Origin: an uncultured Candidatus Saccharibacteria bacterium
GTDB lineage: Bacteria > Patescibacteriota > Minisyncoccia > CAIUEV01 > JAHKAQ01
Reading direction: 5' to 3'
NCBI GenBank assembly: GCA_964598205.1
Contig: CAZRBB010000001.1
Location: 28,199 to 92,198 of the forward strand
Length of the DNA stretch: 64,000 bases
The notes under the pieces were generated by a model, which saw only the letters and a list, made by a program, of their open reading frames with translations, had not been told where the DNA came from and made no database searches. Position numbers and translations under genes: made by a program. This document shows, in pieces, positions 14,351-57,788 of this stretch. Each line of letters opens with the position of its first letter. The stretch's first letter is position 1.

Positions 14351-14498
14351 CACGAACTGTTTCTTTGGTTATTCTCCTTGCATGATTGGAGGAATGGAAA
14401 ATTTAAAGAGAAGCTTAAAACTGGCCGGATTGGTCTTTTTCATGACTCTTTCTTTAAGTATTTTATTCTTTTTTGTTCCCGCTTTTTAATTAAAGCCC

Positions 14499-14615
14499 AT
14501 AGTCTTGGCGGTTCAAGCGACAAGGAAACACCTGATCCCATCCCGAACTCAGAAGTTAAGCTTGTCTGCGCCGATGGTAGCGCTTTTGCGCAAGAGTAGG
14601 CCATCGCCAAGACCA
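14499..14615 (+). rRNA. rrf: 5S ribosomal RNA
   Basis: Helix I AGTCTTGGCG/CGCCAAGAC and the conserved internal blocks CCTGATCCCATCCCGAACTCAGAAGTTAAGC, GCGCCGATGGTAGC and GAGTAGG. Flanking GCCCAT/ATGGGC extends helix I as a processing stem. Confidence 0.85.
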
Positions 14616-14658
14616 TGGGCTTTATTTGTTTCTGGAGTCCGGTTATAATCGAAGGGCT

Positions 14659-26653: not shown

Positions 26654-26819
26654 CATTTCTAAAATAGTTGCTAGAATCCCCGCTAGAAGTAATACTCTTT
26701 TAAGGGTGGCAGAAAACTTAGTCAACAAAATTAAATAAGTAAAGAGGGCGGCCCGCATCTTGAGGGTTGTGTTTTTTTTTATTTTTTTTATAGCCTTTAA
26801 TCATTCAAACTCTTTTACC

Positions 26820-30210: not shown

Positions 30211-33200
30211 ATGTCTAATAGAGTCAGTAGCTTTAAAGCCATCAAGCTCCAGCTGGCTTCTCCGGAGAAAATTTTAGAATGGTCATTTGGAGAAGTGTTA
30301 AAGCCGGAAACCATTAATTATCGCACCCAAAGATTTGAAAAAGACGGTCTTTTTTGTGAAAAGATTTTTGGTCCCAGCAAAGACTGGGAATGTTATTGCG
30401 GAAAGTATAAAAGAATCCGCTACAAAGGAATCGTCTGCGATAAATGCGGCGTTGAAGTTACTAGAAGCGTTGTGCGTCGAGAAAGAATGGGGCACATTGA
30501 CTTGGCTGTTCCAGTAGCTCACATTTGGTATTTAAAAGGATCTCCTTCTAAGTTGGGGCTTATTTTAGACATGAACGCTTCTGATTTAGAAAAAGTGGTT
30601 TATTTTGCCAACTACATTATTACCGATGTTAATCAAGACGAAAAGGAGCGCGCCCTAGACCAACTAGACAAAGAGTACAAATTAAAACTGGCTAATATTA
30701 GAAAAGAAAAAGCTTCTAAGGAAAACAAGGCAGAAATGATAGAAGACTTAAAGGAGCAAAAAAAAGAATCCAAAGAAATTCTAGACTCTTTAGAAAAATT
30801 CAGAGTGATTTCCGAAATGGAATACCGAACAATTTCCCTAAAGTATGGTCATGTTTTTGAAGCCGGGATTGGAGCGGAAGCTATTAGAAGAATTCTTTCT
30901 GGATTAGATCTGGCTACTGAAATAGTCAAAATAGAAGAAAAATTAAGAAGCAATGCTAAGGGTTTAGACAAAAAAAGATTAACCAGAAGATTAAAGATTG
31001 CCAAAGGAATGAGGCAGTCTAACCTTCGGCCAGAATGGATGCTTTTAACGGTGGTACCAGTAATTCCTCCAGATTTGCGTCCAATGGTTCAGCTAGATGG
31101 TGGTCGTTTTGCTACCTCTGATCTTAACGACTTATATCGCAGAATTATTAATCGAAACAATCGTCTTAAAAAGTTAATTTCTATTGGAGCACCAGAAGTA
31201 ATTTGTCGCAACGAAAAAAGAATGCTTCAAGAAGCGGTAGACGCGCTGATAGACAACTCGGCACGAAGAAGTCAGGTTTCTGTAGCGGCTTCTACTGGTC
31301 AAAAACGACCATTAAAATCTTTGGCAGATATGCTTAAAGGAAAGCAAGGCCGTTTCCGCCAAAACTTATTAGGAAAAAGAGTTGATTATTCGGGTCGTTC
31401 AGTAATTATTGTTGGTTCTGGTTTAAAGCTAGATCAATGCGGACTTCCTAAAAAAATGGCACTAGAACTGTTCAAGCCTTTTATTATAGAAAAACTAATT
31501 AAGCTGGGTTATGCCCACAATGTACGGAGCGCTGGCCGCTTGGTAGAGCAGGAATCAACAGAGGCTTACGAAATCTTAGAAGAAGTAATTCAGGGTCATC
31601 ATGTAATTCTTAACCGTGCTCCGACCTTGCACCGTCTTGGTATTCAAGCTTTTCAGCCTGTCCTAATAGAAGGTAAGGCTATTCGAGTCCATCCAATGGT
31701 TTGCACTGCTTTTAATGCAGACTTTGACGGCGACCAAATGGCAGTTCATCTTCCTCTCACAACCAAAGCCAGGAAGGAAGCAGCCACCATTATGGTTTCT
31801 AGAAAAAATTTATTAAAGCCATCTACCGGAGAACCAATTGTCATCCCGACTCAAGATATTGTTTTAGGAATCTACTACATGACAGACATGATAGAAGACG
31901 GGGATGCTAAGAAAATAAAAATTCTTGGTTCTTGCGATGAAGCGATTCTGATGCACCAAATGGAAAAAATCGGGATCAGAGAAAAAATTCAAGTGCGTCT
32001 TTTCAATGGAGAGATGGTAGAAACTTGTGTTGGCCGAGTCATGCTTAACCAAATTCTTCCTGAAGGTTTAGATTTTGTTAATGAAAGGTTAAACAAAAAG
32101 CAACTCAAGCAAATTGTTGCTAAAGTAATTAGAGATTTTGGCTCCGATGAAGCTGCCTGTCTTTTGGATAAATTAAAAGATCTTGGCTTTAAATACGCTA
32201 CTAAATCTGGAATTTCTTGGGGAATGAACGATATTAAGGTTCCCGAAGAAAAACAAAAATATATTCTAAAAGCAGAAGATAACCTTACAGAGCTGAATGA
32301 ACAGTTTAACATGGGACTTCTAACCGAAGAAGAAAGAAAATCCCAGGTAATTCAAATTTGGAACAGTTGCCGAGAAAGAATCGCTGAACAAGTGGAACTG
32401 AGCATTGATAGAAAGAGTCCTGTGTTTACCATGGTTAATTCTGGCGCCAGAGGTACAATGGCGGTTTTAGTACAGTTAATGGGAATGAGAGGTTTAATGG
32501 CCAATCCTGCCGGAGATATTATTGAATTACCGGTTAGAGACAGTTTTAAAGAAGGTTTAAATGTTTTGGAATACTTTATTTCTTCTCATGGAGCACGGAA
32601 AGGAATGGCAGATACGGCCCTAAGAACGGCGACTGCTGGTTATTTAACCAGAAGATTAGTTGATGTCTCTCAGGAAGTGATCATTACCCAGGAAGATTGC
32701 GGTACTACTAAAGGCGCCATTCTTTACAAGAAAGACACTGAAGAAATTGGTGGTGATTTTGCTCAAAGAATAGAAGGTCGGGTAGCCTTAAAAGACATTG
32801 TTGATCCTAAGACCAAAGAGCTGATTGTCCCTGGCGGTGAATTGATTGGAAGAAAAGAAGCAGCGCGAATTAATGGTGTAGACATTAAAGAAGTAATGAT
32901 CCGATCGGTAGTTTACTGCGAATCCAAAGATGGTATTTGCCAAAAATGTTACGGTAACGATTTGGGCAAAAACAGAATGGTGGAATTTGGGCAGGCAGTA
33001 GGAATTGTGGCAGCACAGTCTATTGGAGAGCCGGGAACACAGTTAACCATGAGAACCTTCCATGTAGGAGGAGTTGCTGGGGAAGACATTGTTTCTGGTT
33101 TACCTAGAGTAGAAGAAATTTTTGAAGCCAGACTTCCCAAGGGAGAGGCTCCGATTGTGGAAGAAGACGGTAAGGTAATAGATATCATTACCGACGAAAA

Positions 33201-33801
33201 GAAAAAAGAGATCATTATCCAACCACAAGGAACCAAGGACAAAGAAGAGAACCATTCTTATTCAGTTTCTAAAAATGCTTCTCTTTTAGTTAAGAAAGGG
33301 GACTTGGTTTATTCTGGTCAACAATTGGTATCTGGACATATTGATATTAAAAAATTGTTCCTTGTTTCTGGAGTAGAGGCAGTGCATCGTTATATTATGA
33401 AAGAAATCCAGGAAGTTTATTCTGCTCAAGGGGAAAGTATCGACGATAAACATGTAGAAATAATCATTCGTCAAATGCTTTCTAGAATGAGGGTAGTGGA
33501 GTCGGGAGATACGGATTTAATAGAGGGAGATGTTGTAGAAGCGCCAATGACAGAGGCAATGAACGAAGAAATTGTCCGCGCAGGGAGAAAGCCAGCCAAA
33601 CTAGAAAGAATGATTTTAGGAATTACCAAGGTTTCCCTAACTACAGATAGCTTCCTTTCAGCGGCTTCCTTTCAGCACACGGCTCAAGTGTTAATCAACG
33701 CTTCCTTGCAAGGAAAAGTTGACCCACTAAGAGGCCTTAAAGAAAATGTTATTTTAGGAAAATTGATTCCTGCTGGAACCAATTTTAGAAAGAGAAAATA
33801 G
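30211..33801 (+). CDS. rpoC: DNA-directed RNA polymerase subunit beta'
   Basis: Zinc-binding CxxC...CxxC N-terminus and the NADFDGDQM catalytic motif. Confidence 0.95.
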
Positions 33802-41324: not shown

Positions 41325-42833
41325 GTGGAAAAAATAAATGTCAACACTTTGTTTCCCTCCTCCCTATTTGCTAAAATTAAAGAGATGAAAAAAAAGCGGT
41401 CCCCAAAAAAAGCAAAATCAAAGTCAAAGCCAAAAGCCAAATCTCCTGCGCCTTCTGTTTTTAAAAAGAACATTGTTTTTTTAATTCTGGCAATCTGCCT
41501 GATCGCTGGTGGCATATTTCTTTTGGCAAAAAACCATCCGTCCTCCCCAAATTTTCCACTTCCTGTTCCCCAAAGATCCAAAGAAGCGATTTTGGAAGAC
41601 GCCAAAAAAGGAATAGAGAATCGTAAGCGCGACTTTACCGTTTCTAAGCTTAGGCCAGGAAAAACTTACGAATTAAAACAAGTGACCCAAAAATTTCCTT
41701 TTGGAACAGCGCTTTCTTTTAATTTATTATTTGCGCCGAAGGTTTTTTCTAAAAGTCACCCTAGCGGCTACCAAGCAATCATGGACTATCCCGGTGGCTA
41801 CCTTAGCGCTAAAAAAAATTACTTAAAAATATTTCAAGAAAATTTCAACGGTACTACCCCTGAAAACGCCTTTAAATGGGAGTTTATGAATTCACAAGAA
41901 AGAACCGACTGGCGCATTACCGATCAGGCACTGGGCTTTGTAAAGAAAGATCCCGTGCTTTTAGAAAATTTTCGCGGTCATTGTGTTTTTTGGAACAGAA
42001 AAGTTCGCCTACCAGATTATTTACAAAACGCTTCCCAAGAAGAAATAAGAGAAGCAGTTTTTTCCCAAAGGCTAGCCATGATCAAGCGCTATCCCCAAAT
42101 CAAAGAGTGGGATCTAATCAATGAACCAATTATTCGCCCAGCTTACCTTAAAGACGGTGTTGATCACATGGAAGTTGTTTTTGATCCCCAAAAAGACCTT
42201 GATTTTTTTGTTTCTCTTTTTATTGAGGCTCGGAAAATCAATCCCCAAGCACGATATTTTGTTAACGAAAACCTACTTTTAAGTGGCAAGAATACGCCAA
42301 AGATTATGCAATTTGTAAAAGCGTTGACCGAAAAAGGCGCCAAGCCAGACGGTATTGGTATAGAGGGGCATTTTTCTTCCGATTACAATCCGTTCACCTT
42401 AGAAACCGCCGAAAAGAATCTAAAAGAACTGGCCTCCTTGGGGCTTCCTCTAAAAATAACGGAATTAGATTTTCCCCGTTCTTCTTTTTTGGGGAGTGAA
42501 GATCCTGAGCAAAAACGCGCCACCTATTTAAAAGAAATGCTGACACTTTTTTACGGTACGCCTCAAATAGAAGGTATTTATTTTTGGGGATTTGCCGATC
42601 CGGTTCACTGGAAAGGCAATGAAGGTGCTGGCTTGTTTGATTCTGAATTAAAAATAAAAATAGCAGGCGAAGAATTTCAAAAACTGACCCAAGAAGAATG
42701 GGTTACCAAGGAAACCAAAACCGCCGAAGATAACGGAATCATCAACTTCCGCGGCTTTCCTGGCCGTTACCAAATTATAGATCAGGCTTCTGGGAGAAAA
42801 GTTAAAGAAGTAGTCTTAGAGGAGGCTCCTTGA
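41325..42833 (+). CDS. Membrane-anchored glycoside hydrolase, GH10-like (clan GH-A)
   Basis: Lys-rich N-region then a TM. Acid/base motif WDLINEP and nucleophile motif ITELD in the (beta/alpha)8 order typical of GH10. The Met at 41386 is an alternative start. Confidence 0.55.
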   Translation: MEKINVNTLFPSSLFAKIKEMKKKRSPKKAKSKSKPKAKSPAPSVFKKNIVFLILAICLIAGGIFLLAKNHPSSPNFPLPVPQRSKEAILEDAKKGIENRKRDFTVSKLRPGKTYELKQVTQKFPFGTALSFNLLFAPKVFSKSHPSGYQAIMDYPGGYLSAKKNYLKIFQENFNGTTPENAFKWEFMNSQERTDWRITDQALGFVKKDPVLLENFRGHCVFWNRKVRLPDYLQNASQEEIREAVFSQRLAMIKRYPQIKEWDLINEPIIRPAYLKDGVDHMEVVFDPQKDLDFFVSLFIEARKINPQARYFVNENLLLSGKNTPKIMQFVKALTEKGAKPDGIGIEGHFSSDYNPFTLETAEKNLKELASLGLPLKITELDFPRSSFLGSEDPEQKRATYLKEMLTLFYGTPQIEGIYFWGFADPVHWKGNEGAGLFDSELKIKIAGEEFQKLTQEEWVTKETKTAEDNGIINFRGFPGRYQIIDQASGRKVKEVVLEEAP

Positions 42834-42904
42834 TTATTATCTTGGTAGTTTCTTCGGACAGACTAAGAGCCGTGTCTGGCAGAAGAAACTACCAAGATAA
42901 TAAT
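42833..42904. terminator. Long perfect-palindrome bidirectional terminator
   Basis: 23-bp perfect inverted repeat ATTATTATCTTGGTAGTTTCTTC/GAAGAAACTACCAAGATAATAAT with a 26-nt loop that holds a nested CAGAC/GTCTG pair. Lies between two convergent genes. Confidence 0.65.
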
Positions 42905-42921
42905 CGGGAGTATCATCAAGC

Positions 42922-43950
42922 CTATTCCAGCCCCTTTTTAATCAAAAACCTGGCCTTTCTAATTTCTCGTTCCATTCTCTCTTTATCTTTCAATAGAAAG
43001 CGATTGAATTTTTTCCGTGTTTCTTCTGGCAAAATTGCAATGGCCTCTTTTATTTTTAGAGCCAAATCTTGGGAGTCTCTTTTTTGGGAAAAGATGGCGA
43101 TTTTAGAAAAGTAATGCCTTAGGGCGCCGGTATCGGTAGTAACAAAAACTTTTCTTAGGGCCAGTGCTTCTCTAATTGACCAAAGAACCGTTTTATTTCT
43201 TAGGGTTAAGCACAGCGCTACTTTGGAGCGAGCCATTAGTTTTAAAAATTCTATATGCTCCAAGTAGCCAGTAAAAATTAGGTTCGCAGGCAATCCTTCT
43301 TTTTCTTCCGATTCTAAAAGACCAGGATCTCCGGTTATAAAAAAATCCCAGTTAGGATTATTTTTAGCTGTTTCCCTAATAGTAGGGAAGTCATCGTCGT
43401 TCGGAGCAAAGCGGTTAACCACTAAAACGGGAAAAGTTGATTTTTCTATTTTTGCCGCCAGCTTCTTATTTTCTAATGGTTTCCCCAGTGCTCCTTTGTC
43501 CAAATCGGGTGTGGCAAACTGAACTTCTAAGGAAGGGACTTGCCAACGCCGTAGAATTTGTAAGTCAAATTTATTATGAGCAGTTACTATAATTGATTTT
43601 CTAAAAATAAATTTTCCAAAGAAATGAAAGTGTCGCCATTTTTTGCTTCTAAAAAAAACAGAATGATTATCTACTCCGAATTTAGTTTTTGGATAAAAAA
43701 AGGAAAAACAAGAAACAATTAAAATCGGTAAGAGTGGAGGATTTTGAATAAAAACGAATCTGGGCCGTTCGCGGAAAAGCCACTTTATAGTGCGCACGCT
43801 CTGCTCAAAATACCGAACCAAAAAATGAGCCCCAGGATTTTTAGCCTGAGCCAGAACCACTTGCAAACCCAATGCCAAAGCCAAGTTCCGGCTGAGTTGG
43901 TCTTCTCGTGGCCAAATTAAAAAGCATTTTTTATTCTCCAAAATTTTCAC
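42922..43950 (-). CDS. Glycosyltransferase (GT-B fold, family 1/4-like)
   Basis: Rossmann-like halves in GT-B arrangement, in a glycan gene context. Family assignment is tentative. Confidence 0.5.
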   Translation of the reverse strand: MKILENKKCFLIWPREDQLSRNLALALGLQVVLAQAKNPGAHFLVRYFEQSVRTIKWLFRERPRFVFIQNPPLLPILIVSCFSFFYPKTKFGVDNHSVFFRSKKWRHFHFFGKFIFRKSIIVTAHNKFDLQILRRWQVPSLEVQFATPDLDKGALGKPLENKKLAAKIEKSTFPVLVVNRFAPNDDDFPTIRETAKNNPNWDFFITGDPGLLESEEKEGLPANLIFTGYLEHIEFLKLMARSKVALCLTLRNKTVLWSIREALALRKVFVTTDTGALRHYFSKIAIFSQKRDSQDLALKIKEAIAILPEETRKKFNRFLLKDKERMEREIRKARFLIKKGLE

Positions 43951-48852: not shown

Positions 48853-49126
48853 GTTGCCTTCCTTTCATTTCATTCTCTTGTTGTTATTGTTCTTTCATTG
48901 TCTTTTTTCGCCTTTGGTCAACTTAACCAAACTGCCGTCAATTACAAATTTAAAACTACGAACAACAAAAAAATCCGCCATTCGTAATTTTAAATTCGTA
49001 ATTGAGCGTAGTTCGGTTAAGTCGACTTTCTAATTTTTAAAGATCGTTCCTGTCCTCCAGCTTTGGGTAAAAAATTTTCACCCAAGGCCGGAGAGAGGAG
49101 AAAAAATCTCCCCTCTTAGTATGTTT

Positions 49127-49924: not shown

Positions 49925-50042
49925 AAAACTTTTTTAAGAAATAAAGAGAACCCGCTATAAAAGCACATTTACTTAATTTAGTCAATAGCAGGGGAGTAGT
50001 TTTGTAATTGTGAGCCGCTCTCTCTAAAGTCCCAAGCTTTCA

Positions 50043-50202
50043 TAAATAGTTCCAGCTAGGGTTCCTTCTGGGGAGGCTTTTTGATCCGAGCGGGCCGGCT
50101 TCCCTTATAAGAGGGAAGAGCGAGGATCAAAACTTGAGCAAGCGAAGCCGCTGGGCGGAGCGCTGCGTACTCCCCAGAGGGAACCCTGGCTGGAACTATT
50201 TA
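50043..50202. ncRNA. Candidate structured RNA element, copy 1 of 2; unclassified family
   Basis: A 32-bp near-perfect outer inverted repeat encloses an inner hairpin and a short hairpin. These are followed by a 40-nt conserved single-stranded core, AAAACTTGAGCAAGCGAAGCCGCTGGGCGGAGCGCTGCGTACTC. Confidence 0.4.
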
Positions 50203-50231
50203 GCCCCCACCATTGACTAAATAGCAATTTT

Positions 50232-51707
50232 ATGCTTAAGTATTTGGTTTTCACCAGTTCCAGATCCTATTTTATTTTTGTTTCCAGTGTTATGGCAATT
50301 TCTGTTAAAAAATATCACCAGCTTTTAAATCTCTCTAAATTTTTAGTAGAAGTTTTGGCTGTTTTTTCCTTAATCCTGCTTATTTTCCAAAGATTAGGAG
50401 ATGATTCACTCTTTAAGCCACCATTCCCTAGCTCCTTTAATAGTTTTCTTTCTTTGGCCATTTTCTTTACTTTGATTCAAGCGCTTATCTTTATCTTTAT
50501 TGGTTTTTACAGAAGGGAACTTTCTTTCCTTAATTTTGAAGATTTAAAGAAAGCAATTCAGTCTCTTCTTTGGGGGAGTGTTCTTTTGCTTTTCTTTTTA
50601 CTTTATCGGGGAGAAGGGGAAAGCGCTTTCCACCTAGCTGCTCTTTATTTTGGCTTAGCCTTTGCGTTGATTAGCTCGGAACGGAGCTTTTTCTACGAAC
50701 TTAACAGACGAAATTATAAGAAAGGACTTTGGGTTAAAAAGGTAGCCATTTATGATGCTTGTCCTACCGGCCGACTTCTTTTAAAAAAACTTTTTGCTTC
50801 GCCTCAGTTAGGTTATTTACCAGTAGGCTTTATAGACAACAGAAGGAAGAAAGGCGTTCTAGTAAAAACGAACTCCGAAGAGACTAAAGCAGCGGTGCCT
50901 GTTCTAGGCAATATGGCTAACTTTGGGAGAATTATTAGGAAAAATCAAATAGAAGAATTGTTTATTGCCACGCCGGCCCTAAAAGGAGGAGATATTCAAC
51001 GCCTTGCTTTAAGCTGTAAAAGAGCCGGTATTGATTACCGTTTTGTTCCAAATCTCTTAAAAGAACCATTGCATCGGGCTACCTTACAATTCTTTGGGGA
51101 AATTCCTTTTATTAAGGCGGAAGAATTAAGAATCAATCTTTTAACCCTCTTTTTAAAAAGAGTTTTTGATTTAGCTTTTTCTGTTTTAGCGCTATTCTTT
51201 CTTTCTCCTGTTTTTCTTTTAATTTCTTACCTGATTAAAAAAGATTCACCTGGGCCGGTATTCTTTGGGCAAAAACGAGTTGGCAAAGACGGCCGGTTAT
51301 TTACAATGTACAAATTCCGCACCATGAAGGCTGGGGCCAAACATTATGAATATTCTCCTACTAATCATAAAGACCAAAGGATAACTCCTCTGGGTCGTTT
51401 TTTAAGACGAACTAGCTTAGACGAGTTGCCTCAATTTTTTAATTCCTTAAAAGGAGAAATGAGCGTTGTGGGTCCACGACCGGAAATGGAATTTATTGTT
51501 AAAAAATATACTGTTTACCAAAGAGAGCGGTTGCTTATAAAGCCGGGAATCACCGGCGTTTGGCAGGTAACAGCTGATCGTAAAAAACAAATTCACGAAA
51601 ACATGGATTACGATATTTATTACATTAAAAATGCCTCTTTGGTTTTAGACTTCTTGATTATTTTTCGGACTTTTTGGTTTGCAGTGCGGGGAATCGGCGG
51701 AATTTAA
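50232..51707 (+). CDS. Polyprenyl-phosphate hexose-1-phosphate transferase (WbaP/bacterial sugar transferase family), priming glycosyltransferase
   Basis: N-terminal TM helices plus a C-terminal sugar-transferase domain (KRVFDLAFSVLAL...FTMYKFRTM...LDELPQFFNSLKGEMSVVGPRP). Confidence 0.8.
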   Translation: MLKYLVFTSSRSYFIFVSSVMAISVKKYHQLLNLSKFLVEVLAVFSLILLIFQRLGDDSLFKPPFPSSFNSFLSLAIFFTLIQALIFIFIGFYRRELSFLNFEDLKKAIQSLLWGSVLLLFFLLYRGEGESAFHLAALYFGLAFALISSERSFFYELNRRNYKKGLWVKKVAIYDACPTGRLLLKKLFASPQLGYLPVGFIDNRRKKGVLVKTNSEETKAAVPVLGNMANFGRIIRKNQIEELFIATPALKGGDIQRLALSCKRAGIDYRFVPNLLKEPLHRATLQFFGEIPFIKAEELRINLLTLFLKRVFDLAFSVLALFFLSPVFLLISYLIKKDSPGPVFFGQKRVGKDGRLFTMYKFRTMKAGAKHYEYSPTNHKDQRITPLGRFLRRTSLDELPQFFNSLKGEMSVVGPRPEMEFIVKKYTVYQRERLLIKPGITGVWQVTADRKKQIHENMDYDIYYIKNASLVLDFLIIFRTFWFAVRGIGGI

Positions 51708-51716
51708 TTTAAGAAT

Positions 51717-52964
51717 ATGCCACCATTAAAACAATCAGCCATTAAAAAAATGTCAAAGAGAGTTTTATTTTTAATAGAAAATCTTTCTTTCCTTCAGGAT
51801 CGGCGAGTTGCCCAAGAAGCTCTAGCCGTTCAGTCTCTGGGCTGGCAAGTTTTTGTGGTTGCTCCTGGAAATAAAGATCAAAAGAAGGAAGAAAATATCA
51901 ACGGTATTTCTGTTTTTCGCTATCCCGCCAAAATTTTTCCTAGTGGTTTTTGGGGCTATTTCCAGGAATATACTTATGCTCTTTATCAAACATTTTTCTT
52001 GGCGTTAAAAATTTATTTTCGTCCTGGCGGTTTTTCGGTAATCCACGCCGCTAATCCCCCCGATCTGTTTTTCTTAATCGGTGCCTTTTTTAAAATCTTC
52101 GGTGTTCGCTTTATTTATGACCAGCACGATTTAGCTCCAGAAATGTTTTTAGCTAAGTTCAATACTTCTCGTACTCATTTGCTTTACTGGGCGACCCGTT
52201 TCGCAGAACGGCTTTCTTATCTTTTAGCCACTACTCACATTGCTACCTGTCAGGTAGGCTTGGATTTTTTTCTAAAAAGTCGCAACTTAAAGAATAAAAA
52301 AAGCCAAATAGTTAGAACTGCCCCCGATCTTTCTCTTTTAAATTCTTTTGGCGCTAACCCCAAACTTCTTAATCGCTTAACTGCCATTAAGAAAGATTTC
52401 CCTTATTTGGGAGTTTACTTAGGAGTAATGGGACATCAAGACGGATTAAGCAAGCTTCTTCGGAGCATTGAAATTTTTGTTAAAAAATCTAAAAGAAAAG
52501 ACATTGGTTTTCTTCTTTTGGGATCGGGCGACGCCCTAAACGATTTAAGAATTACTGTTGGAAAAATGGGACTAGAGAATCGAGTTTTTTTCCTTGGCTG
52601 GATGGAACCCAAAGAAACTGCTGCATGCTTGGAGGTAGCTGATTTTGGCTTAATGCCTGAACCAAAAAATGATTACACCGATTATTCGCTTCATAATAAA
52701 GTATTAGAATACTTAGCTTTTGGATTACCTTTTGTTTCTTACGACTTAAAAGAAGTTCAAAATAATGGCCACGCTGCCGCGCTTTATGCCAAGAATAATA
52801 ACGAAGAAGAGTATGCCGAGCTAATTAATCAAATGTTAAATAATCTAGATTCCCAAAAAAAGGAAGGCCAAAAAAGAAAAGCGGAAATTATGACTGACCA
52901 GTCTTTGAGTTGGGACAATTCAATAAAAACGCTAAAAGAAATTTATTTAAAGTTGGATAAATAA
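51717..52964 (+). CDS. Glycosyltransferase family 4
   Basis: GT-B fold, N-domain LFLIENLSF...VVAPG, C-domain with the EX7E-like region. Confidence 0.7.
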   Translation: MPPLKQSAIKKMSKRVLFLIENLSFLQDRRVAQEALAVQSLGWQVFVVAPGNKDQKKEENINGISVFRYPAKIFPSGFWGYFQEYTYALYQTFFLALKIYFRPGGFSVIHAANPPDLFFLIGAFFKIFGVRFIYDQHDLAPEMFLAKFNTSRTHLLYWATRFAERLSYLLATTHIATCQVGLDFFLKSRNLKNKKSQIVRTAPDLSLLNSFGANPKLLNRLTAIKKDFPYLGVYLGVMGHQDGLSKLLRSIEIFVKKSKRKDIGFLLLGSGDALNDLRITVGKMGLENRVFFLGWMEPKETAACLEVADFGLMPEPKNDYTDYSLHNKVLEYLAFGLPFVSYDLKEVQNNGHAAALYAKNNNEEEYAELINQMLNNLDSQKKEGQKRKAEIMTDQSLSWDNSIKTLKEIYLKLDK

Positions 52965-53011
52965 TTTTGTTGTGCTATAAAGCTTGGTTATTTTTCTTCT
53001 TAATTTAAAAC

Positions 53012-54244
53012 ATGAAAGATCCCAAAAAAATTCTTTTTATCACCAGCGCCTATTATGCTCCTTCTTATCGACGACTTTGGAAAAAAGCTGTTTCCTTAAA
53101 AAACGATGGCTATAAGGTGGCAGTAATTTGTCCCGCCGGAAAAAAGGGATTAAAAGAAACCAAGGAGCAGGGGATAAAAATTTATGGATTTAATAAAAAA
53201 ACAAAAAGAAATAGCGTTCTTGGTATTTTTTTAGGGGAGATTAGAGATTTGCTCTCTATGACTTCTTTGGTTCTTAGTGCCTATTCCAAAAGAGAGTTTG
53301 CAACTATTCACTTGGTTAATCCTTCGGATGTGGCAGTTTTTGCAGTGCTCTGGTTTAAGCTCTTAGGGTACCGTTTTGTTTACGAATCAAATGGTTCATT
53401 TTCTTCTCAAATTTATCGGGAAGAAAAACTTTCCCAATCAAGCGGTAAGTGGTTTCTGAATCTATTTTTAAAAAGTTCGCAAAAACTAGCTTTGTTTTTT
53501 TCTGACTGGGTGATTGTTCCTGACTGGCAAGAAAAGAAAAGACTCGTTGCCCTAGGGAAAAACAAAAGGCGCATCATCACTATCGAACCATTACCCGATC
53601 TAAAAGAATTTTACGACTTGTTGCCCCATCATCGTTACAAAATGGGTTTTTCTAAGGTAGCAATTTATGCTGGCGGTCTTAAGTTTTCTTCTGGTATTCT
53701 AAAACTACTTGTCGCCGTTGATTTTATTGTGAATCGTCTTTTAAGGAAAGATATTTTGTTTATTTTAGCTGGAGAAGGAAAAGATGAAGAACGATTAAAA
53801 AAGATTGTTCAAGAAAGGGGATTGGAAGGAAATGTTTTTTTCACTGGTTGGCTAAAACAAAAAAAATTATTAAATTACTTAGCCGCAGCAGATTTAGGAA
53901 TTATTCCCGAAGAAAATAATCTGGAAGGAAAGTTTCGGGATTCTGCTTTTGAATATTTAGCCGTAGGTAAGCCAATTGTTGCTTTTGATTTCCCTGGTGG
54001 AGAAGAAAAAATCGGTAAAGCTGGATCTTTTGTAAAAGATGGCAAAGAAATTTCCCTAGCTCGGGAAATTATTCGCTTAATAGATAACGAAGAACGAATC
54101 AAGGCCATGGGCTCGGTTGGGAGGCTTAAAGTTTCCCGTAATTTTAATTGGCTAAAATCAGAAATAGAATTGCTAGCTTTTTATGACCGTCTTTTTCCAA
54201 ACGACTCCTTCTTTAAAATTAGCAAAAAAGCACTCAAAATATAA
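53012..54244 (+). CDS. Glycosyltransferase family 4
   Basis: GT-B fold; ILFITSAYY...VAVICP N-domain and C-terminal donor-binding domain. Confidence 0.7.
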   Translation: MKDPKKILFITSAYYAPSYRRLWKKAVSLKNDGYKVAVICPAGKKGLKETKEQGIKIYGFNKKTKRNSVLGIFLGEIRDLLSMTSLVLSAYSKREFATIHLVNPSDVAVFAVLWFKLLGYRFVYESNGSFSSQIYREEKLSQSSGKWFLNLFLKSSQKLALFFSDWVIVPDWQEKKRLVALGKNKRRIITIEPLPDLKEFYDLLPHHRYKMGFSKVAIYAGGLKFSSGILKLLVAVDFIVNRLLRKDILFILAGEGKDEERLKKIVQERGLEGNVFFTGWLKQKKLLNYLAAADLGIIPEENNLEGKFRDSAFEYLAVGKPIVAFDFPGGEEKIGKAGSFVKDGKEISLAREIIRLIDNEERIKAMGSVGRLKVSRNFNWLKSEIELLAFYDRLFPNDSFFKISKKALKI

Positions 54245-54329
54245 GCTAAATACTACAAGTAGTTATTTTAAGTTTCCTTTTCCATGTCATGGTGTTAAAA
54301 TAAAAAATATAAAAATAAAAAATATTCTA

Positions 54330-55700
54330 ATGCGCTTTAAGGTCACTATTATTTTGTTTTCTTTTATCGTCCCCCTCTTCTTTTTGGGTGTGTTCGGCTT
54401 TTTCCCTTCTTCGGCTTTTTCTGCTTCTGATGCCTCAGAAGAAAAAGACGATCAGGAGCTTTATTTGGATTACCAAGGCTATTTAAGGTATCAAAAATAT
54501 AAAGACTATAAAGAAGCCAAAGAGAAATACGGATTCAAAACCACGCAAATCAAGAATGACTACAAAAACAAATACAGTCTGTATAAAGCCAATCCCAAAA
54601 AATACGCCAGCTATTACGACGCTTATAAACGCTATAAAAATTACAAGAACAAGTACAGCGAAAAATATGCTGGCTATGATCAATATAAAAAATATTACGA
54701 CAAGGGCTGGAAGTACCAAAAATACGGCAAGAAAAAATATAAAGATGGCTATAACCGATACCAATTAGCATTAAAGAACAAAACAACAGGAGGAACTATC
54801 GCCTCCGGCTCTACTGGACCAGAAATCACTGTCGGAATTTTAAAGTACGAAAAAAATTATTCCAAAGATCACGCTTTCCGTTTTCGGGCGAACAAAGACT
54901 ATGCGGTTAAGGATTCTGCCGGGAATTCAATTGCTTTAGTTTCTAGCTCTAAGGAAACCAGCGTTAAATACGTTAGCAGTAGTAAGCTAAGAGTTTATGG
55001 GGAAGGTTTTGATACAGAAGTTAACGAGCAAGTTGATTTCGTTGCCTTAGACGGCAATAACGACGATTTAATTTTCAATGTTGACCCCAATCCTAAGTAC
55101 AGTTTTGACGATTATCGAGGGAAAATAAGAGTGCGCTATTCTAATGATTCAAGCCAGGTGTGGGTTATTAATATGCTCCCCTTGGAACAGTACGCTTGGG
55201 GAATGGGAGAGATTACTGGCACTGGTGCCATGGAATATAACAAGGTAATGTCTTTAACTTTCCGCACCTATGGTTATTGGAAAATAAAATATAGTACGCG
55301 TTATACCGAAGAAGGCTTTAAGGTAGATGCTACCGCTAACAGTCAAATTTATTACGGTTACGACTGGGAGTTAGATCATCCTCGTATTAAAGAAGCTGTC
55401 CAAGCCACTCGCGGTCAGATAGTAAAATACAAAGACCGAATTGCGATTACTCCCTACTCATCTTCTACCGACGGTCGCACTCGTTCTTGGAAAGAAAGAT
55501 GGGGAAGTGACAACTATCCTTGGTGTGTATCGGTAGAAGATCCTTATGGTAAGGTAGACGGTGCCGGCTCTATTGAAGGCAATCATATGGTTGGTCTTTC
55601 GGCTCGCGGTGCCTTAAAACTGGCAGACGACCACGGCTGGGGTTACGAAAAAATCTTAAAGTATTACTATACTGGAATTGATTTAGAAACTGTCTATTAA
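54330..55700 (+). CDS. Secreted SpoIID/LytB-domain protein with a Tyr/Lys-rich low-complexity region
   Basis: Signal peptide, about 110 aa of YK-rich repeats (KYxxYKxYKNKY...), then SpoIID/LytB blocks (NMLPLEQYAWGMGEI...ITPYSSSTDGRTRSWKERWGSDNYPWCVSVEDPYG). Start moved to Met 54330. Confidence 0.6.
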   Translation: MRFKVTIILFSFIVPLFFLGVFGFFPSSAFSASDASEEKDDQELYLDYQGYLRYQKYKDYKEAKEKYGFKTTQIKNDYKNKYSLYKANPKKYASYYDAYKRYKNYKNKYSEKYAGYDQYKKYYDKGWKYQKYGKKKYKDGYNRYQLALKNKTTGGTIASGSTGPEITVGILKYEKNYSKDHAFRFRANKDYAVKDSAGNSIALVSSSKETSVKYVSSSKLRVYGEGFDTEVNEQVDFVALDGNNDDLIFNVDPNPKYSFDDYRGKIRVRYSNDSSQVWVINMLPLEQYAWGMGEITGTGAMEYNKVMSLTFRTYGYWKIKYSTRYTEEGFKVDATANSQIYYGYDWELDHPRIKEAVQATRGQIVKYKDRIAITPYSSSTDGRTRSWKERWGSDNYPWCVSVEDPYGKVDGAGSIEGNHMVGLSARGALKLADDHGWGYEKILKYYYTGIDLETVY

Positions 55701-55710
55701 TCTAAACGCA

Positions 55711-56232
55711 ATGAGCTTTAAAAAAGTATTTTTAGCGGTTGTGGTTTTAACTGTATTAGCTTACGGAGGCTATGTTTATAAAGACCGTTTTTGGGAAACC
55801 CAAAAAACTCAAACCAAGGAAGAAACAAGGCCTGAGTTTAACAAATCGTCAAAAGATCCTTCTTCCTTAGACCAAGCTCCAACCAATCCGGATAATTCTG
55901 GCGATCTTCCAAAAGAAACAACTCCCGAAGAAACCGAAACCCAAACAGAAGCTGTCTTAGAAGACTATTTAAAAGACTGCGATAATAAATGTGAGTCATT
56001 TTTTGGTGCCCAACTAGATCGCTGTTTAGAAATTTGTCGAATAAAAGGATCTTCTCCAGAAGAAGACGGATCCATTGAGTCTTGCGAATCAAAAACAGGA
56101 GAAGAAAAAGATTTTTGTTTAAAGAATCAAGCAGTCAAGGAAAAAAAAGAGTCTCTTTGTAAAGAAATAAGCAATCAAGCTGTTAGGGAAGCTTGCTTTA
56201 ACGCTGTTGCCGAAACAATTCTTGACCGATGA
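55711..56232 (+). CDS. Small secreted Cys-rich hypothetical protein
   Basis: Signal peptide, acidic region, 10 Cys in CxxxC-like spacing. Confidence 0.4.
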   Translation: MSFKKVFLAVVVLTVLAYGGYVYKDRFWETQKTQTKEETRPEFNKSSKDPSSLDQAPTNPDNSGDLPKETTPEETETQTEAVLEDYLKDCDNKCESFFGAQLDRCLEICRIKGSSPEEDGSIESCESKTGEEKDFCLKNQAVKEKKESLCKEISNQAVREACFNAVAETILDR

Positions 56233-56840
56233 TTAAAAGCAATATTTTCCCAGATCTGCCGTTTTCACAAGCAAAAGTTGGCCCAAAGATGGCTGTTTCC
56301 GGAGAGCATTCGGTTTATCGTTATGGTGACAAAGAAGTGATTAAGTTTCCTGCTGGGCCAATCCATTATGCTAATAATGAAGAGGCTTATCGCAAAATTT
56401 TGAATGAATTTCAATTAGCTAAAAGGTATTTAGGAGAATTTATTGCTCCGGCTAGCATTTTCACTTACAAAAAGAACAACAAAAAAGCTTACTGTATTAT
56501 TCAAAAGTTTATTAAGGGGACTCCTTTAAAAATAGAAGATCTTCAAAATAAAGATTTAAAGGAGAAGCTGGAAGAGTTGATTAAGGCTAATCGAGAGATG
56601 CGCATTAACACCGGATATTCTTTTGAGTTTTTTGGTATTAGGGGACTTTTTTTCCACCGATTTTTAAAAAAAATGGAAAATGTTTTAGTGGATGAATCGG
56701 GAAATTTAAAAATAATTGATTTTGGAATGATTTCCGAAATTAACATGGTTTCTAGTTCTCCAGTTTTGCGGTCTTTTATTCAATGGGCCCTAAAAAGACA
56801 GAGCAAAATTCTAAAAGAGAGCTATCTTGCCATAGAATAG
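56229..56840 (+). CDS. Protein-kinase-like fold protein, possibly a pseudokinase
   Basis: VIKFP (VAIK-like), HRFLKKMEN in place of the HRDLKxxN catalytic loop (Asp replaced by Phe), and a DFG motif (IIDFGM). Confidence 0.4.
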   Translation: MIKSNIFPDLPFSQAKVGPKMAVSGEHSVYRYGDKEVIKFPAGPIHYANNEEAYRKILNEFQLAKRYLGEFIAPASIFTYKKNNKKAYCIIQKFIKGTPLKIEDLQNKDLKEKLEELIKANREMRINTGYSFEFFGIRGLFFHRFLKKMENVLVDESGNLKIIDFGMISEINMVSSSPVLRSFIQWALKRQSKILKESYLAIE

Positions 56841-56866
56841 GGCAAATGGTATGCTGATGGAAAATT

Positions 56867-56896
56867 AAGTGCATTAAAAATAAAAATAAAAATAAA
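56867..56896. repeat. Hexanucleotide microsatellite (AAAAAT)x5
   Basis: Seen directly, immediately upstream of the start codon at 56904. Confidence 0.8.
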
Positions 56897-56903
56897 AATA
56901 AAA

Positions 56904-57260
56904 ATGAAGTCAAAAACAAAGCCAAGAGAAGAATTTAGCGGACATGCCCAAAGAGGAAAAGAATGGTCAGATGTAATCAAGGATTGGATTTTTGACCACC
57001 TAAAGGCGTTTACTTCATTGTTGGTGGCAGAAACCGGAAAAGAAATTAAGAATCGTCTTCGCGATTTCCTCTCCATGGTCAATAAGGCATTTATTTCTTC
57101 ACTGATGGTTTTTTTGGGGGTGGTTTTTTTAATGGTCGGAATGGCTCTTATTCTAAATGAATTATTCAATATTTCGGGTGGCCTAGGCTTTATCTTGGTG
57201 GGTATTTTATCTGTTTTTTTAGGGGTGGTGGTTCGAGAAGAATTAAAGCAACAAAAATAA
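56904..57260 (+). CDS. Small membrane protein (holin-like topology)
   Basis: 118 aa, amphipathic N-terminus then two TM helices. Confidence 0.4.
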   Translation: MKSKTKPREEFSGHAQRGKEWSDVIKDWIFDHLKAFTSLLVAETGKEIKNRLRDFLSMVNKAFISSLMVFLGVVFLMVGMALILNELFNISGGLGFILVGILSVFLGVVVREELKQQK

Positions 57261-57282
57261 TTTAAATAATTTAAATAAAAAA

Positions 57283-57555
57283 ATGGATTTTAAAAAAAAG
57301 GACATTGAAAAAAAAGCCAAAGAAATCAAAGACAAAGCCAAAGAAGTGACAGAAGGAATTCAAGAAAGAGCAGTGGAATTAAAAAAGGAAGCTAAGAAGA
57401 ATATTGAAAAAGCCAAGAAAGATTTCCAAATTGCAGAAAAAAAGGTTAAGGATTACATGGAGAAGAATCCAGCCAAAGCAGCAGCTATTGCCGCTGGAAT
57501 TGGGGCAGTGATTGGTGCCGGATTAGCAGCCATGATTGGAAGAAAAAGAAAATAA
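57283..57555 (+). CDS. DUF883/YqjD-like C-tail-anchored membrane protein
   Basis: 90 aa with a Lys/Glu-rich helical N-terminus and a C-terminal Gly/Ala-rich TM anchor (AAIAAGIGAVIGAGLAAMIG). Confidence 0.45.
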   Translation: MDFKKKDIEKKAKEIKDKAKEVTEGIQERAVELKKEAKKNIEKAKKDFQIAEKKVKDYMEKNPAKAAAIAAGIGAVIGAGLAAMIGRKRK

Positions 57556-57572: not shown

Positions 57573-57603
57573 AAAACACCCTCGATTTTTCGGGGGTGTT
57601 TTT
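57573..57603 (+). terminator. Intrinsic terminator
   Basis: ACACCCTCG-ATTTTT-CGGGGGTGT hairpin followed by a T run. Confidence 0.6.
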
Positions 57604-57637
57604 ATTTAAGATAGAAAGACCATGATTGGAGAATAAA

Positions 57638-57781
57638 GCTAAGAGGGCGTGCCTGTTTTGTTGAGGCTTTTTCATTCGAGTGGGCCGGTTTTCCGAAGGA
57701 AAGAGCTCGAATGAAAACTGAGCAAGCGGAGCCGCTGGGCGAAGCGAAGCGTACTCAACAAAACAGGCACGCCCTCTTAGC
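57638..57781. ncRNA. Candidate structured RNA element, copy 2 of 2; unclassified family
   Basis: 28-bp perfect outer inverted repeat with a different sequence from copy 1; an inner 12-bp stem, a short hairpin and the same conserved core AAAACTGAGCAAGCGGAGCCGCTGGGCGAAGCGAAGCGTACTC. Confidence 0.4.
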
Positions 57782-57788
57782 TTCTGGT

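What the first reader, a model, noticed from the sequence alone, without database searches (positions are those of the whole stretch)
57638..57781. Second copy of the structured element, located after a terminator between convergent genes
- The core is the same as at 50043..50202, but every helix is re-coded.
- It lies between the terminator at 57573..57603 and the 3' end of fmt, so it is not simply a terminator itself.
- The pair differ at roughly 10 positions in the conserved single-stranded segment; one example is GCGAAGCC...GGCGGAGCG in copy 1 against GCGGAGCC...GGCGAAGCG here.
- Two genomic contexts, a divergent promoter and a convergent terminator region, argue for an autonomous RNA gene or a structured mobile element rather than a cis-regulator of one operon.
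Basis: seen in the sequence. Interest (0 to 1): 0.75.

Follow-up and report, generated by a model that had tools for sequence, protein, structure and literature searches.

The report
Orphan structured RNA element, second copy
Two diverged copies of a strongly folded, roughly 150-base non-coding element that matches no known RNA family sit in otherwise silent gaps of an uncultured Patescibacteria genome; it is real and apparently new, but with only two copies its function can only be guessed.

Summary
Copy 2 (57636-57783, + strand) and copy 1 (50043-50202, + strand) share an ~88-94 nt core. Each core is closed by a 30-33 bp almost perfect helix whose outer part is unrelated in sequence between the copies. 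RNAalifold gives 54 pairs, 18 of them with changes on both sides. Wobble and purine-purine pairs favour the + strand.

No Rfam family matches. A 19-nt core motif occurs in none of 185,579 species genomes, nor in the metagenome collection (which lacks this contig). Several core motifs are absent from viral contigs, and blastn of the copies finds nothing in phage or plasmid records. A covariance model finds nothing more in ~82 kb of this genome or ~140 kb of relatives.

The three relatives' loci that keep either gene arrangement lack the element. Copy 1 lies between two conserved back-to-back promoters, upstream of the sugar-transferase operon's promoter. Copy 2 lies beyond that operon's terminator, 5 nt from the fmt stop. 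It is therefore not a leader or riboswitch.

Best guess (0.4): an independently expressed small RNA cut out of a long processing stem, acting in trans. Rivals are a selfish single-stranded-DNA element and paired operon boundary elements. It is a candidate new RNA family, and the evidence is thin.

The parts
57636..57783 (+). Copy 2, whole element (P1 arms plus core)
   Evidence: Inverted arms are 30 nt and 100% complementary. MFE is -83 kcal/mol, z = -9.6. CM R1 scores 124.8 bits. The sequence is identical in seven loci from five samples (L035, L036, L095, L103-L105).
57636..57665 (+). Copy 2, P1 5' arm (pairs with 57754-57783)
   Evidence: The inner 12 bp are 7/12 identical to copy 1. The outer 18 are 6/18 identical, which is about what chance gives.
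57666..57668 (+). Copy 2, P1b 5' strand GCU (pairs with AGC 57721-57723); invariant, so unproven
   Evidence: Predicted by RNAalifold. All 3 pairs never vary.
57669..57681 (+). Copy 2, P2 5' strand (pairs with 57705-57717)
   Evidence: 13 pairs, 2 with double-sided change. Copy 1 has tandem G.A/A.G where copy 2 has G-C/A-U. There is a U.G end pair on the + strand.
57682..57688 (+). Invariant 7-nt internal loop GGGCCGG (opposite the single A at 57704)
   Evidence: Identical in both copies.
57689..57703 (+). Copy 2, P3 hairpin (UUUUCC-GAA-GGAAAG)
   Evidence: Re-coded and shorter than in copy 1 (CUUCCCU-UAUAAG-AGGGAAG).
57718..57725 (+). Junction CUGAGCAA (includes the P1b 3' strand)
   Evidence: Conserved apart from a 1-nt indel.
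57726..57745 (+). P4 hairpin GC-GGA-GCC-GCUG-GGC-GAA-GC, with a symmetric 3x3 purine loop
   Evidence: The Watson-Crick pairs are invariant. The middle purines swap between copies, A.G versus G.A. This is my reading of the sequence.
57746..57753 (+). 8-nt tail GAAGCGUA joining P4 to P1
   Evidence: 6 of 8 positions identical between copies.
57754..57783 (+). Copy 2, P1 3' arm
50043..50202 (+). Copy 1, whole element. P1 50043-50075/50170-50202; P1b 50076-50078/50137-50139; P2 50079-50091/50120-50132; loop 50092-50098; P3 50099-50118; P4 50142-50161; tail 50162-50169.
   Evidence: 139.5 bits. Identical in four loci from three samples (L115 is the window's own contig).
57573..57603 (+). Intrinsic terminator of the upstream operon. 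Not part of the element; it defines the element's left context.
   Evidence: -22.7 kcal/mol hairpin followed by a U run. It is weaker on the - strand, at -16.6. Rfam terminator-like partial matches.
50213..50241 (+). Conserved promoter of the sugar-transferase operon (TTGACT-N17-TTAAGT), starting 11 nt downstream of copy 1
   Evidence: Aligned with L106, L107 and L109. Pattern match.
49957..49985 (-). Conserved promoter of the Wzz-like gene (TTGACT-N17-TTTTAT); its -35 box lies 57 nt left of copy 1
   Evidence: Aligned with L106 and L109. Pattern match.

Best explanation
What it is. Copy 2 and copy 1 are two old paralogues of a structured RNA that so far is found only in this lineage and that fits no described family.

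Anatomy. Each copy is a three-way junction made of:
- a 30-33 bp, almost perfect closing helix (P1), free to drift in sequence;
- an arm P1b-P2, then an invariant GGGCCGG/A internal loop, then P3;
- a short hairpin P4 with a 3x3 purine loop and a GCUG loop;
- an 8-nt tail.

Proposed mechanism. The + strand is transcribed on its own rather than as part of a neighbouring mRNA. The long P1 duplex is then cut by a double-strand-specific RNase (RNase III, Mini-III or M5 type). The 5S rRNA in this window, which carries a 23-bp extension stem, appears to be matured the same way. This releases a stable core of about 100 nt. Its invariant loops and junctions bind a partner, most likely a protein, in trans.

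Shown: the fold, the compensatory changes, the strand preference, the lack of any known family, the absence at orthologous sites, and the position outside both neighbouring mRNAs.

Inferred: transcription, processing in P1, and trans action.
For: Fold and covariation. z = -9.6 and -10.1. 54 consensus pairs, 18 with double-sided change. 97.5% paired against 39-54% for slid controls.

Selection pattern typical of a functional RNA.
- Unpaired core positions: 27/32 identical.
- Core paired positions: 45/56 identical.
- Inner 12 bp of P1: 7/12 identical.
- Outer P1: 6/18 identical (chance level), yet still 30/30 and 33/33 paired.

Strand.
- All wobble pairs are on the + strand: 2 inside P1 of copy 1, plus U.G at the ends of P2 and P3 in copy 2.
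- The purine-purine motifs (tandem G.A in P2 of copy 1, the GRA/GRA loop in P4) would become pyrimidine mismatches on the - strand.
- MFE on + versus - is -99.2 versus -86.8 and -83.0 versus -78.0.

Composition. GC is 0.53-0.56 in a 0.38 genome.

Not a leader. The conserved promoter lies downstream of copy 1. No co-directional gene follows copy 2.

Precedent in the same window. 5S rRNA at 14504-14612 is enclosed by a 23-bp flanking stem.

No mobile-element or reverse-transcriptase genes among the 30 of 51 window ORFs scanned or in the precomputed Pfam tables of the flanking loci.
Against: - There is no expression data.
- The two copies share no promoter motif at a fixed distance upstream. The only candidates are weak: TTGTAA-N17-TAAAGT at 50002-50030, and TGTTTTTAT at 57597-57605 (my reading; the scans found none on the + strand).
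- No terminator follows either copy.
- Only two sequences exist, from one organism, so covariation rests on a single pairwise comparison.
- No homologue was found in relatives, so conservation over evolutionary time cannot be shown.
- G.T wobbles and tandem G.A pairs are also stable in single-stranded DNA, so the strand evidence does not prove RNA.
- The partner is unknown.
Confidence: 0.4

Rival explanations
1. A selfish, non-autonomous mobile or recombination element that folds as single-stranded DNA. The + strand is the probable lagging-strand template. The element has lodged in the two kinds of gap where it does no harm: between back-to-back promoters, and between convergent gene ends.
For: - Both sites are lineage-specific gains. 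The nearest relative has 6 nt between the fmt and 90-aa ORF stops. Relatives with the same Wzz|Bac_transf synteny lack it.
- Both sites lie outside known mRNAs on the + strand.
- The copies share no promoter.
- GC skew is mostly positive on the + strand.
- G.T, tandem G.A and the GCGAAGC heptamer are stable in DNA (my own knowledge).
- 'Empty' long hairpins exist nearby, at 42832-42905 and 48917-49026, so insertion into hairpin loops is conceivable.
Against: - The ends are not conserved between copies: outer arms are 33% identical.
- There is no target-site duplication.
- Only 2 copies occur in ~82 kb.
- The copies are old, with compensatory changes in P2 and P3 and saturated outer P1.
- They are fixed and identical in every assembly.
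- No transposase, HUH, integrase or RT domain was found among the 30 of 51 window ORFs scanned or in the flanking-locus Pfam tables.
- The core motif has no match in viral, plasmid or phage collections.
Confidence: 0.2
2. Paired boundary elements of the polysaccharide operon. The two co-oriented copies mark its two ends. They would act as RNA-end stabilisers or insulators when read through, or as sites for a recombinase that excises or exchanges the 7.6-kb segment.
For: - Both copies are on the operon's strand and sit exactly at its two ends (50292-57555). I estimate the post-hoc chance of this at roughly 1-5%.
- All four hairpins with stems of 30 bp or more in the window lie in the 15-kb polysaccharide region.
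Against: - Copy 1 is upstream of the operon's conserved promoter, and copy 2 is beyond a good terminator. Neither is in the main transcript.
- The last two operon genes (118 aa, 90 aa) are ancestral neighbours of fmt in relative L100. The bracketed segment is therefore not a cassette that arrived as a unit.
- The longest identical run between the copies is 12 nt, which is too short for homologous excision.
- No recombinase was found.
- Related operons in L106, L109, L118 and L119 have no such elements.
Confidence: 0.12
3. The functional strand is the - strand. On this view P1 of copy 2 is a 3'-end hairpin that protects or terminates the def-fmt mRNA, and the rest is incidental.
For: - P1 ends 5 nt from the fmt stop codon.
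- The next terminator-like structure for fmt is the weaker - strand face of 57573-57603.
- Another convergent gene pair in the window also carries a 32-bp hairpin, at 42832-42905.
Against: - Wobble pairs and purine-purine motifs favour the + strand, as do the folding energies.
- A plain 3' hairpin needs no conserved 90-nt core.
- Copy 1 is not downstream of any - strand gene.
- No U tract follows P1 on the - strand.
Confidence: 0.07
4. A cis-acting leader of the downstream operon: a riboswitch, or a processive antiterminator in the style of EAR, put or ops.
For: Copy 1 lies 90 nt upstream of the start codon of a polysaccharide operon. Such operons often carry antitermination leaders (my own knowledge). 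The invariant loops resemble an aptamer.
Against: - The promoter conserved in three relatives lies between copy 1 and the gene.
- Copy 2 has no co-directional gene downstream.
- Relatives with the same operon lack the element.
- No Rfam riboswitch or leader matches; the best is Guanidine-I at 12.4 bits, E = 7.
Confidence: 0.03
5. A DNA inverton. The perfect inverted repeats would be recombinase sites that flip the 88-94 bp core as a phase switch next to a surface-polysaccharide operon.
For: Inverted repeats flanking a short segment immediately upstream of a polysaccharide operon recall Bacteroides capsule promoters (my own knowledge).
Against: - Orientation is the same in all assemblies from several samples.
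- The repeats differ between the two copies while the interior is conserved. This is the opposite of what a shared invertase would need.
- The interior shows RNA-type compensatory changes.
- It contains no promoter-like site.
- No invertase was found in the window.
Confidence: 0.03

Closest known systems
Processing stems that enclose stable RNAs (rRNA precursors cut by RNase III; pre-5S rRNA cut by RNase M5 in Firmicutes-type bacteria)
   Same: The 5' and 3' flanks pair into a long helix that encloses a conserved, structured core, and the helix sequence is free to vary. The 5S rRNA in this same window has such a 23-bp extension.
   Different: The enclosed RNA is not an rRNA or any known stable RNA. 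P1 is longer and more perfect than usual. Cleavage and even transcription are unproven here.
Orphan structured ncRNA motifs found as GC-rich intergenic regions in AT-rich bacterial genomes (Breaker/Weinberg-type surveys, e.g. PMC8632094, PMC11109978; titles and abstracts seen only, papers not read)
   Same: It is a GC-rich island (0.53-0.56 against 0.38). It has a multi-stem junction with invariant loops and covarying stems. It shows no consistent gene association.
   Different: Those motifs rest on many representatives across species. This one has two sequences from one organism and no detectable relatives.
MITE / REP / ERIC-type intergenic palindromic repeats
   Same: It is a short non-coding palindromic element. 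It lies in intergenic gaps between convergent or divergent genes and is absent from orthologous sites in relatives.
   Different: In those families the terminal repeats are the conserved part and the copies are numerous. Here the termini are unrelated, the centre is conserved, there is no target-site duplication, and there are only two copies.
Integron attC sites
   Same: Strand-specific folded palindromes of 60-140 nt with variable sequence, arranged as direct repeats that bracket genes.
   Different: attC sites keep their conserved boxes at the ends and vary in the centre, which is the reverse of this element. There is no integrase, and the bracketed segment is an 8-gene operon with ancestral synteny.
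5S rRNA-like three-way junction architecture
   Same: A closing helix, a longer arm with an internal loop and hairpin, and a shorter arm with a symmetric purine-rich (loop-E-like) internal loop.
   Different: The 5S covariance model does not match. The junction topology and loop sequences differ. The resemblance is architectural only.

Membership tests
Any Rfam 15 family (4227 models, including 6S, SRP, Y RNA, 5S, riboswitches and the self-cleaving ribozymes in Rfam) | A match of the core to the family covariance model | tested here: not met
   Nothing at gathering score. At E <= 10 with lax filters, copy 2's core gives only a MIR854 hit (15.7 bits, E = 0.081; eukaryotic miRNA long-hairpin model, spurious) and an SpF25 hit (14.8 bits, E = 7.6); the other hits lie on the neighbouring terminator. 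Copy 1 gives Guanidine-I at 12.4 bits, E = 7.
MITE / REP-like repeat element | Terminal inverted repeats conserved between copies | tested here: not met
   The outer 18 bp of P1 are 6/18 identical between copies. The arms occur nowhere else in the window.
MITE / REP-like repeat element | Target-site duplication flanking the element | tested here: not met
   The flanks are ...ctttca|P1|gccccc... and ...gagaat|P1|ctggtc.... No direct repeat is present.
MITE / REP-like repeat element | Many copies per genome | tested here: inconclusive
   2 copies in ~82 kb. The rest of the genome could not be fetched.
Integron attC | Conserved R''/R' boxes (RYYYAAC...GTTRRRY) at the ends, a variable centre, and an integrase nearby | tested here: not met
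   The ends are variable and the centre is conserved. Copy 1 has no GTT/AAC boxes. No integrase domain was found.
Inverton (invertible promoter) | Both orientations present in the population; an invertase; a promoter inside | tested here: not met
   One orientation in all assembled contigs from several samples. No invertase. No internal promoter-like site. Read-level minority orientations could not be tested.
Riboswitch / 5' leader | Lies between the promoter and the start codon of a co-directional gene | tested here: not met
   The conserved promoter at 50213-50241 is downstream of copy 1. Copy 2 faces the 3' end of fmt.
Intrinsic terminator | A GC-rich hairpin immediately followed by a U tract | tested here: not met
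   No U run follows P1 on either strand in either copy. The scan finds none.
Retron ncRNA (msr-msd) | An adjacent reverse-transcriptase gene | tested here: not met
   The neighbours are a Wzz-like gene, Bac_transf, a Gly-zipper ORF and fmt. No RT domain in the scanned ORFs.
Stable RNA enclosed by a processing stem | 5' and 3' flanks form a helix of 20 bp or more around a conserved structured core | tested here: met
Stable RNA enclosed by a processing stem | The RNA is transcribed and cut in the stem by a double-strand-specific RNase | not testable with these tools
   There is no transcriptome. The rnc, Mini-III and M5 genes were not looked for outside the window.
Self-cleaving ribozyme (new class) | Site-specific self-scission | not testable with these tools
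   Only the lack of a match to known ribozyme models could be shown.

The most novel reading that the evidence does not exclude
A previously undescribed class of functional RNA, either a ribonucleoprotein scaffold or a small ribozyme. It would be confined to a deep, poorly sampled Patescibacteria lineage. A perfectly paired closing duplex of 30 bp or more would be an obligatory part of its biology. Its members would be placed deliberately at the two boundaries of the surface-polysaccharide operon.
Probability: 0.2. Interest if true: 0.7.

Novelty: new variant of a known kind. Interest (0 to 1): 0.45.

Why it matters
Patescibacteria (the candidate phyla radiation) make up a large share of bacterial diversity, yet almost nothing is known about their non-coding RNAs. 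This element shows the marks of a functional structured RNA: invariant loops, covarying stems, and a GC-rich island in an AT-rich genome. It fits no known family, so it is a concrete candidate for a lineage-specific RNA. It also poses a clear evolutionary question: how are 30-33 bp helices kept perfectly paired while their sequence drifts to saturation? Either strong selection for long double-stranded RNA is at work, or the two arms are corrected against each other at the DNA level. The practical value is limited until more members or expression data exist.

Tried and rejected
Searches for further copies or relatives.
- Rfam at gathering score and at E <= 10: no family.
- Exact 19-nt core motif in 185,579 species genomes: 34 hits. 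All are chance matches inside GC-rich, mostly coding, sequence without the other core blocks.
- The same motif in JGI metagenome contigs: 58 hits, all chance, GC 0.52-0.75. The window's own contig is not in that collection, so this absence carries limited weight.
- Four viral-contig scans with different core patterns: 0, 5 (all chance coding), 0 and 0.
- blastn against phages (copy 2) and plasmids (copy 1): nothing.
- Covariance model R1, filters off for the window and most loci: only the two copies in the window plus ~18 kb of extra flank. Nothing above 12.2 bits in ~140 kb from seven relatives' loci.
- A weak hit after a tRNA-Gln in L103 shares CTTGAGCAA but does not fold alike, and Rfam does not know it.

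Strain variation.
- Both copies are identical in every assembly, so no extra covariation and no empty site could be found.

Ideas considered and dropped.
- A coding peptide. An ATG-led 33-codon frame exists in copy 2 only, and a 1-nt indel breaks it in copy 1.
- Hammerhead, HDV-like, 6S, SRP and C/D-box readings, checked by eye against consensus features recalled from memory. None fits, and Rfam agrees.
- attC, retron, inverton and riboswitch. See the membership tests.
- Arms derived from nearby sequence. There is no second match in the window.

Full report
1. THE OBSERVATION

The element is real. At 57636-57783 two 30-nt arms are 100% complementary and lie 88 nt apart. Copy 1 has 33-nt arms at 50043-50075 and 50170-50202: 31 Watson-Crick pairs plus two U.G pairs on the + strand.

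As RNA, the + strands fold at -83.0 and -99.2 kcal/mol (z = -9.6 and -10.1). None of 200 shuffles does as well for either. Core patterns of 26-27 nt occur exactly twice in the window, against 0.00 expected.

RNAalifold returns the outer stem, a 4-bp extension, the inner stem, the hairpin and one more hairpin. That is 54 pairs, of which 18 keep pairing through changes on both sides. On my explicit structure 97.5% of cells pair, against 39-54% when partners are slid by 1-3 columns. There are 8 double-sided changes: 5 in the inner 12 bp of P1, 2 in P2 and 1 in P3. P1b and P4 never vary, so they are predictions only.

2. ANATOMY (copy 2 coordinates)

- P1: 57636-57665 pairs with 57754-57783.
- P1b: GCU 57666-57668 pairs with AGC 57721-57723.
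- P2: 57669-57681 pairs with 57705-57717.
- Internal loop: invariant GGGCCGG at 57682-57688, opposite the single A at 57704.
- P3 hairpin: 57689-57703.
- Junction: CUGAGCAA at 57718-57725.
- P4: 57726-57745, read as GC-GRA-GCC-GCUG-GGC-GRA-GC.
- Tail: GAAGCGUA at 57746-57753.

In this model, however, the two purines face each other in a symmetric 3x3 purine loop, as A.G in one copy and G.A in the other. I therefore read it as a possible non-canonical covariation rather than drift in a single strand. This is inference from one pair of sequences.

3. CONSERVATION PATTERN

- Unpaired core columns, excluding the P3 loop: 27/32 identical.
- Paired core columns: 45/56 identical.
- Inner 12 bp of P1: 7/12 identical.
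- Outer 18 bp of P1: 6/18 identical, about what chance gives. Even so, both helices remain fully paired.

Two conclusions follow. The copies are old paralogues rather than a recent duplication. And the loop and junction nucleotides are held by selection. GC is 0.56 and 0.53 in a window of 0.38.

4. STRAND

Every wobble pair is on the + strand: two inside P1 of copy 1, and U.G at the ends of P2 and P3 in copy 2. The tandem G.A/A.G in P2 of copy 1 and the purine loop of P4 would become pyrimidine mismatches on the - strand.

The - strands fold less well, at -86.8 and -78.0 kcal/mol. This favours a + strand single-stranded nucleic acid. It does not by itself separate RNA from single-stranded DNA.

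5. IDENTITY SEARCHES

- Rfam has no match at gathering score. At E <= 10 the hits near copy 2 mostly belong to the neighbouring terminator; only spurious MIR854 (15.7 bits, E = 0.081) and SpF25 (14.8 bits, E = 7.6) hits overlap the element. Copy 1 gives only a 12.4-bit Guanidine-I match at E = 7.
- The 19-nt motif GCAAGCGNAGCCGCTGGGCG gave 34 hits in the species-genome collection and 58 in the metagenome collection. All lie in GC-rich sequence and lack the other core blocks.
- Viral contigs, phage records and plasmids gave nothing real.
- These searches need near-exact cores, so diverged relatives would be missed. The window's own contig is not in the metagenome collection.

6. SOURCE ORGANISM AND THE WIDER NEIGHBOURHOOD

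The window is JGI contig Ga0485169_0000006, from a Patescibacteria-like organism. The best non-self fmt homologue is only 50% identical.

A covariance model built from the two copies (R1) finds only those two. The search covered the window with filters off, ~9 kb to the left, and ~9.4 kb to the right.

Both copies are identical, and in the same orientation, in every independent assembly I could fetch.

7. ORTHOLOGOUS LOCI

fmt side.
- The nearest relative, L100, keeps def-fmt followed by a convergent 90-aa gene and a 142-aa gene. These are 59% and 32% identical to the window's 90-aa and 118-aa ORFs.
- There the two stop codons are 6 nt apart. Here they are 233 nt apart, and that space holds the terminator and copy 2.
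- More distant relatives L101 and L102 have gaps of 70 and 80 nt after fmt, with different downstream genes, and no model hit.

Sugar-transferase side.
- Relatives with a 57%-identical sugar transferase keep the divergent Wzz|Bac_transf arrangement (L106, L108, L109).
- Their gaps are AT-rich and give no model hit.
- Loci L118-L120 are also negative.

The element is therefore a lineage-specific gain at both sites, or a loss in every sampled relative.

8. POSITION RELATIVE TO TRANSCRIPTION UNITS

The alignments with the relatives expose two conserved, back-to-back promoters of the form TTGACT-N17-(TGC)TTWWRT.
- The operon's promoter is at 50213-50241 on the + strand. It starts 11 nt downstream of the end of copy 1.
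- The Wzz promoter is at 49985-49957 on the - strand. Its -35 box lies 57 nt to the left of copy 1.

Copy 1 thus sits between two promoters that fire away from it, and it belongs to neither mRNA. The sugar-transferase gene most likely starts at 50292 (471-aa form).

Copy 2 lies beyond a good + strand terminator: -22.7 kcal/mol followed by a U run. It is 5 nt from the fmt stop codon. No + strand gene follows it.

Both copies are co-oriented with one 8-gene operon (50292-57555) and sit at exactly its two ends. The operon encodes a sugar transferase, two glycosyltransferases, a SpoIID-domain protein, a 173-aa protein, a kinase-like protein, a 118-aa protein and a 90-aa protein.

I put the post-hoc chance of such bracketing at a few per cent. 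A cassette reading is weakened for three reasons.
- The two right-most genes are ancestral neighbours of fmt.
- The longest identical run between the copies is 12 nt.
- No recombinase was found among the window ORFs I scanned, which are housekeeping genes such as RNase Y, PNPase, ThrRS, UvrD, FtsW and L25. Twenty-one of the 51 ORFs were not scanned directly, including the two longest (26760-30191 and 30211-33801).

10. MOST LIKELY MECHANISM (confidence 0.4)

I propose an independently expressed + strand RNA whose long P1 is a processing and stability stem. A double-strand-specific RNase would cut it and release a three-way-junction core of about 100 nt. The invariant loops of that core would bind a partner in trans.

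The same window offers a precedent: its 5S rRNA is enclosed by a 23-bp flanking stem.

Weak points:
- There is no expression evidence.
- The copies share no promoter at a fixed distance, and no terminator follows either.
- There are only two sequences.

11. RIVALS

- A selfish element that folds as single-stranded DNA and sits in neutral gaps (0.2). The lineage-specific insertions, the silent locations and nearby 'empty' long hairpins at 42832-42905 and 48917-49026 speak for it. Unrelated ends, no target-site duplication, old and fixed copies, and no enzyme speak against it.
- Paired boundary elements of the operon (0.12).
- A - strand 3' hairpin for fmt (0.07).
- A leader or antiterminator (0.03).
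- An inverton (0.03).
- Chance similarity is excluded.

12. COMPARISON AND NOVELTY

The element works most like a stable RNA inside a processing stem. It looks like the orphan GC-rich structured motifs reported from AT-rich genomes.

It fails the defining tests for MITE/REP elements, attC sites, invertons, retron RNAs, terminators, riboswitches and every Rfam family.

I rate it a new variant of a known kind: an unclassified structured non-coding element.

Interest is moderate, at 0.45. The structure is convincing and the family appears new. But with two copies in one uncultured organism, function remains conjecture.

Noticed in passing
window 42832-42905: A unique 32-bp hairpin with a 10-nt loop (-52.9 kcal/mol on the + strand, z = -11.5). 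It lies between the convergent GH10 gene (41325-42833) and a glycosyltransferase gene (42922-43950). No U tract follows it. It resembles an 'empty' version of P1.
   Followed up: partly
window 48917-49026: A very long hairpin of about 55 bp. It folds far better on the - strand (-63.5 against -43.2 kcal/mol) because of many G.U pairs. It lies between the Wzz-like gene and the next - strand ORF. Relatives have shorter hairpins at the same place.
   Followed up: partly
window 42.8-57.8 kb: All four hairpins with stems of 30 bp or more in the 64-kb window fall inside the 15-kb polysaccharide-biosynthesis region. The rest of the window has only ordinary 16-bp terminators and the 5S stem.
   Followed up: no
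window 14488-14627: The 5S rRNA (14504-14612) stands alone, with no 16S or 23S in the window. It is enclosed by a 23-bp, 91% complementary extension of helix I, which looks like a precursor processing stem.
   Followed up: partly
window 49957-49985 (-) and 50213-50241 (+): A pair of back-to-back promoters, TTGACT-N17-(TGC)TTWWRT, is conserved with relatives that share only 57% protein identity. The same pattern occurs only four times in the window, which is no more than chance gives.
   Followed up: yes
window 50232-50292: The longest ORF of the sugar transferase starts at 50232, inside the conserved promoter. The database form is 471 aa, so the real start is probably the ATG at 50292.
   Followed up: yes
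L103 versus L104 from about 13208 (about 460 nt beyond the right end of the window): Two assemblies of the same organism diverge immediately after a tRNA-Gln, which suggests a strain-variable island integrated at the tRNA. In L103 the tRNA is followed by a terminator and a GC-rich stretch of about 170 nt (13245-13415). That stretch folds at z = -4.6 and has no Rfam match.
   Followed up: partly
window 57597-57605: The U tract of the terminator reads TGTTTTTAT. This is the same extended -10-like string as in the conserved Wzz promoter (TGCTTTTAT). It could be a weak promoter feeding copy 2, but that is speculative.
   Followed up: no
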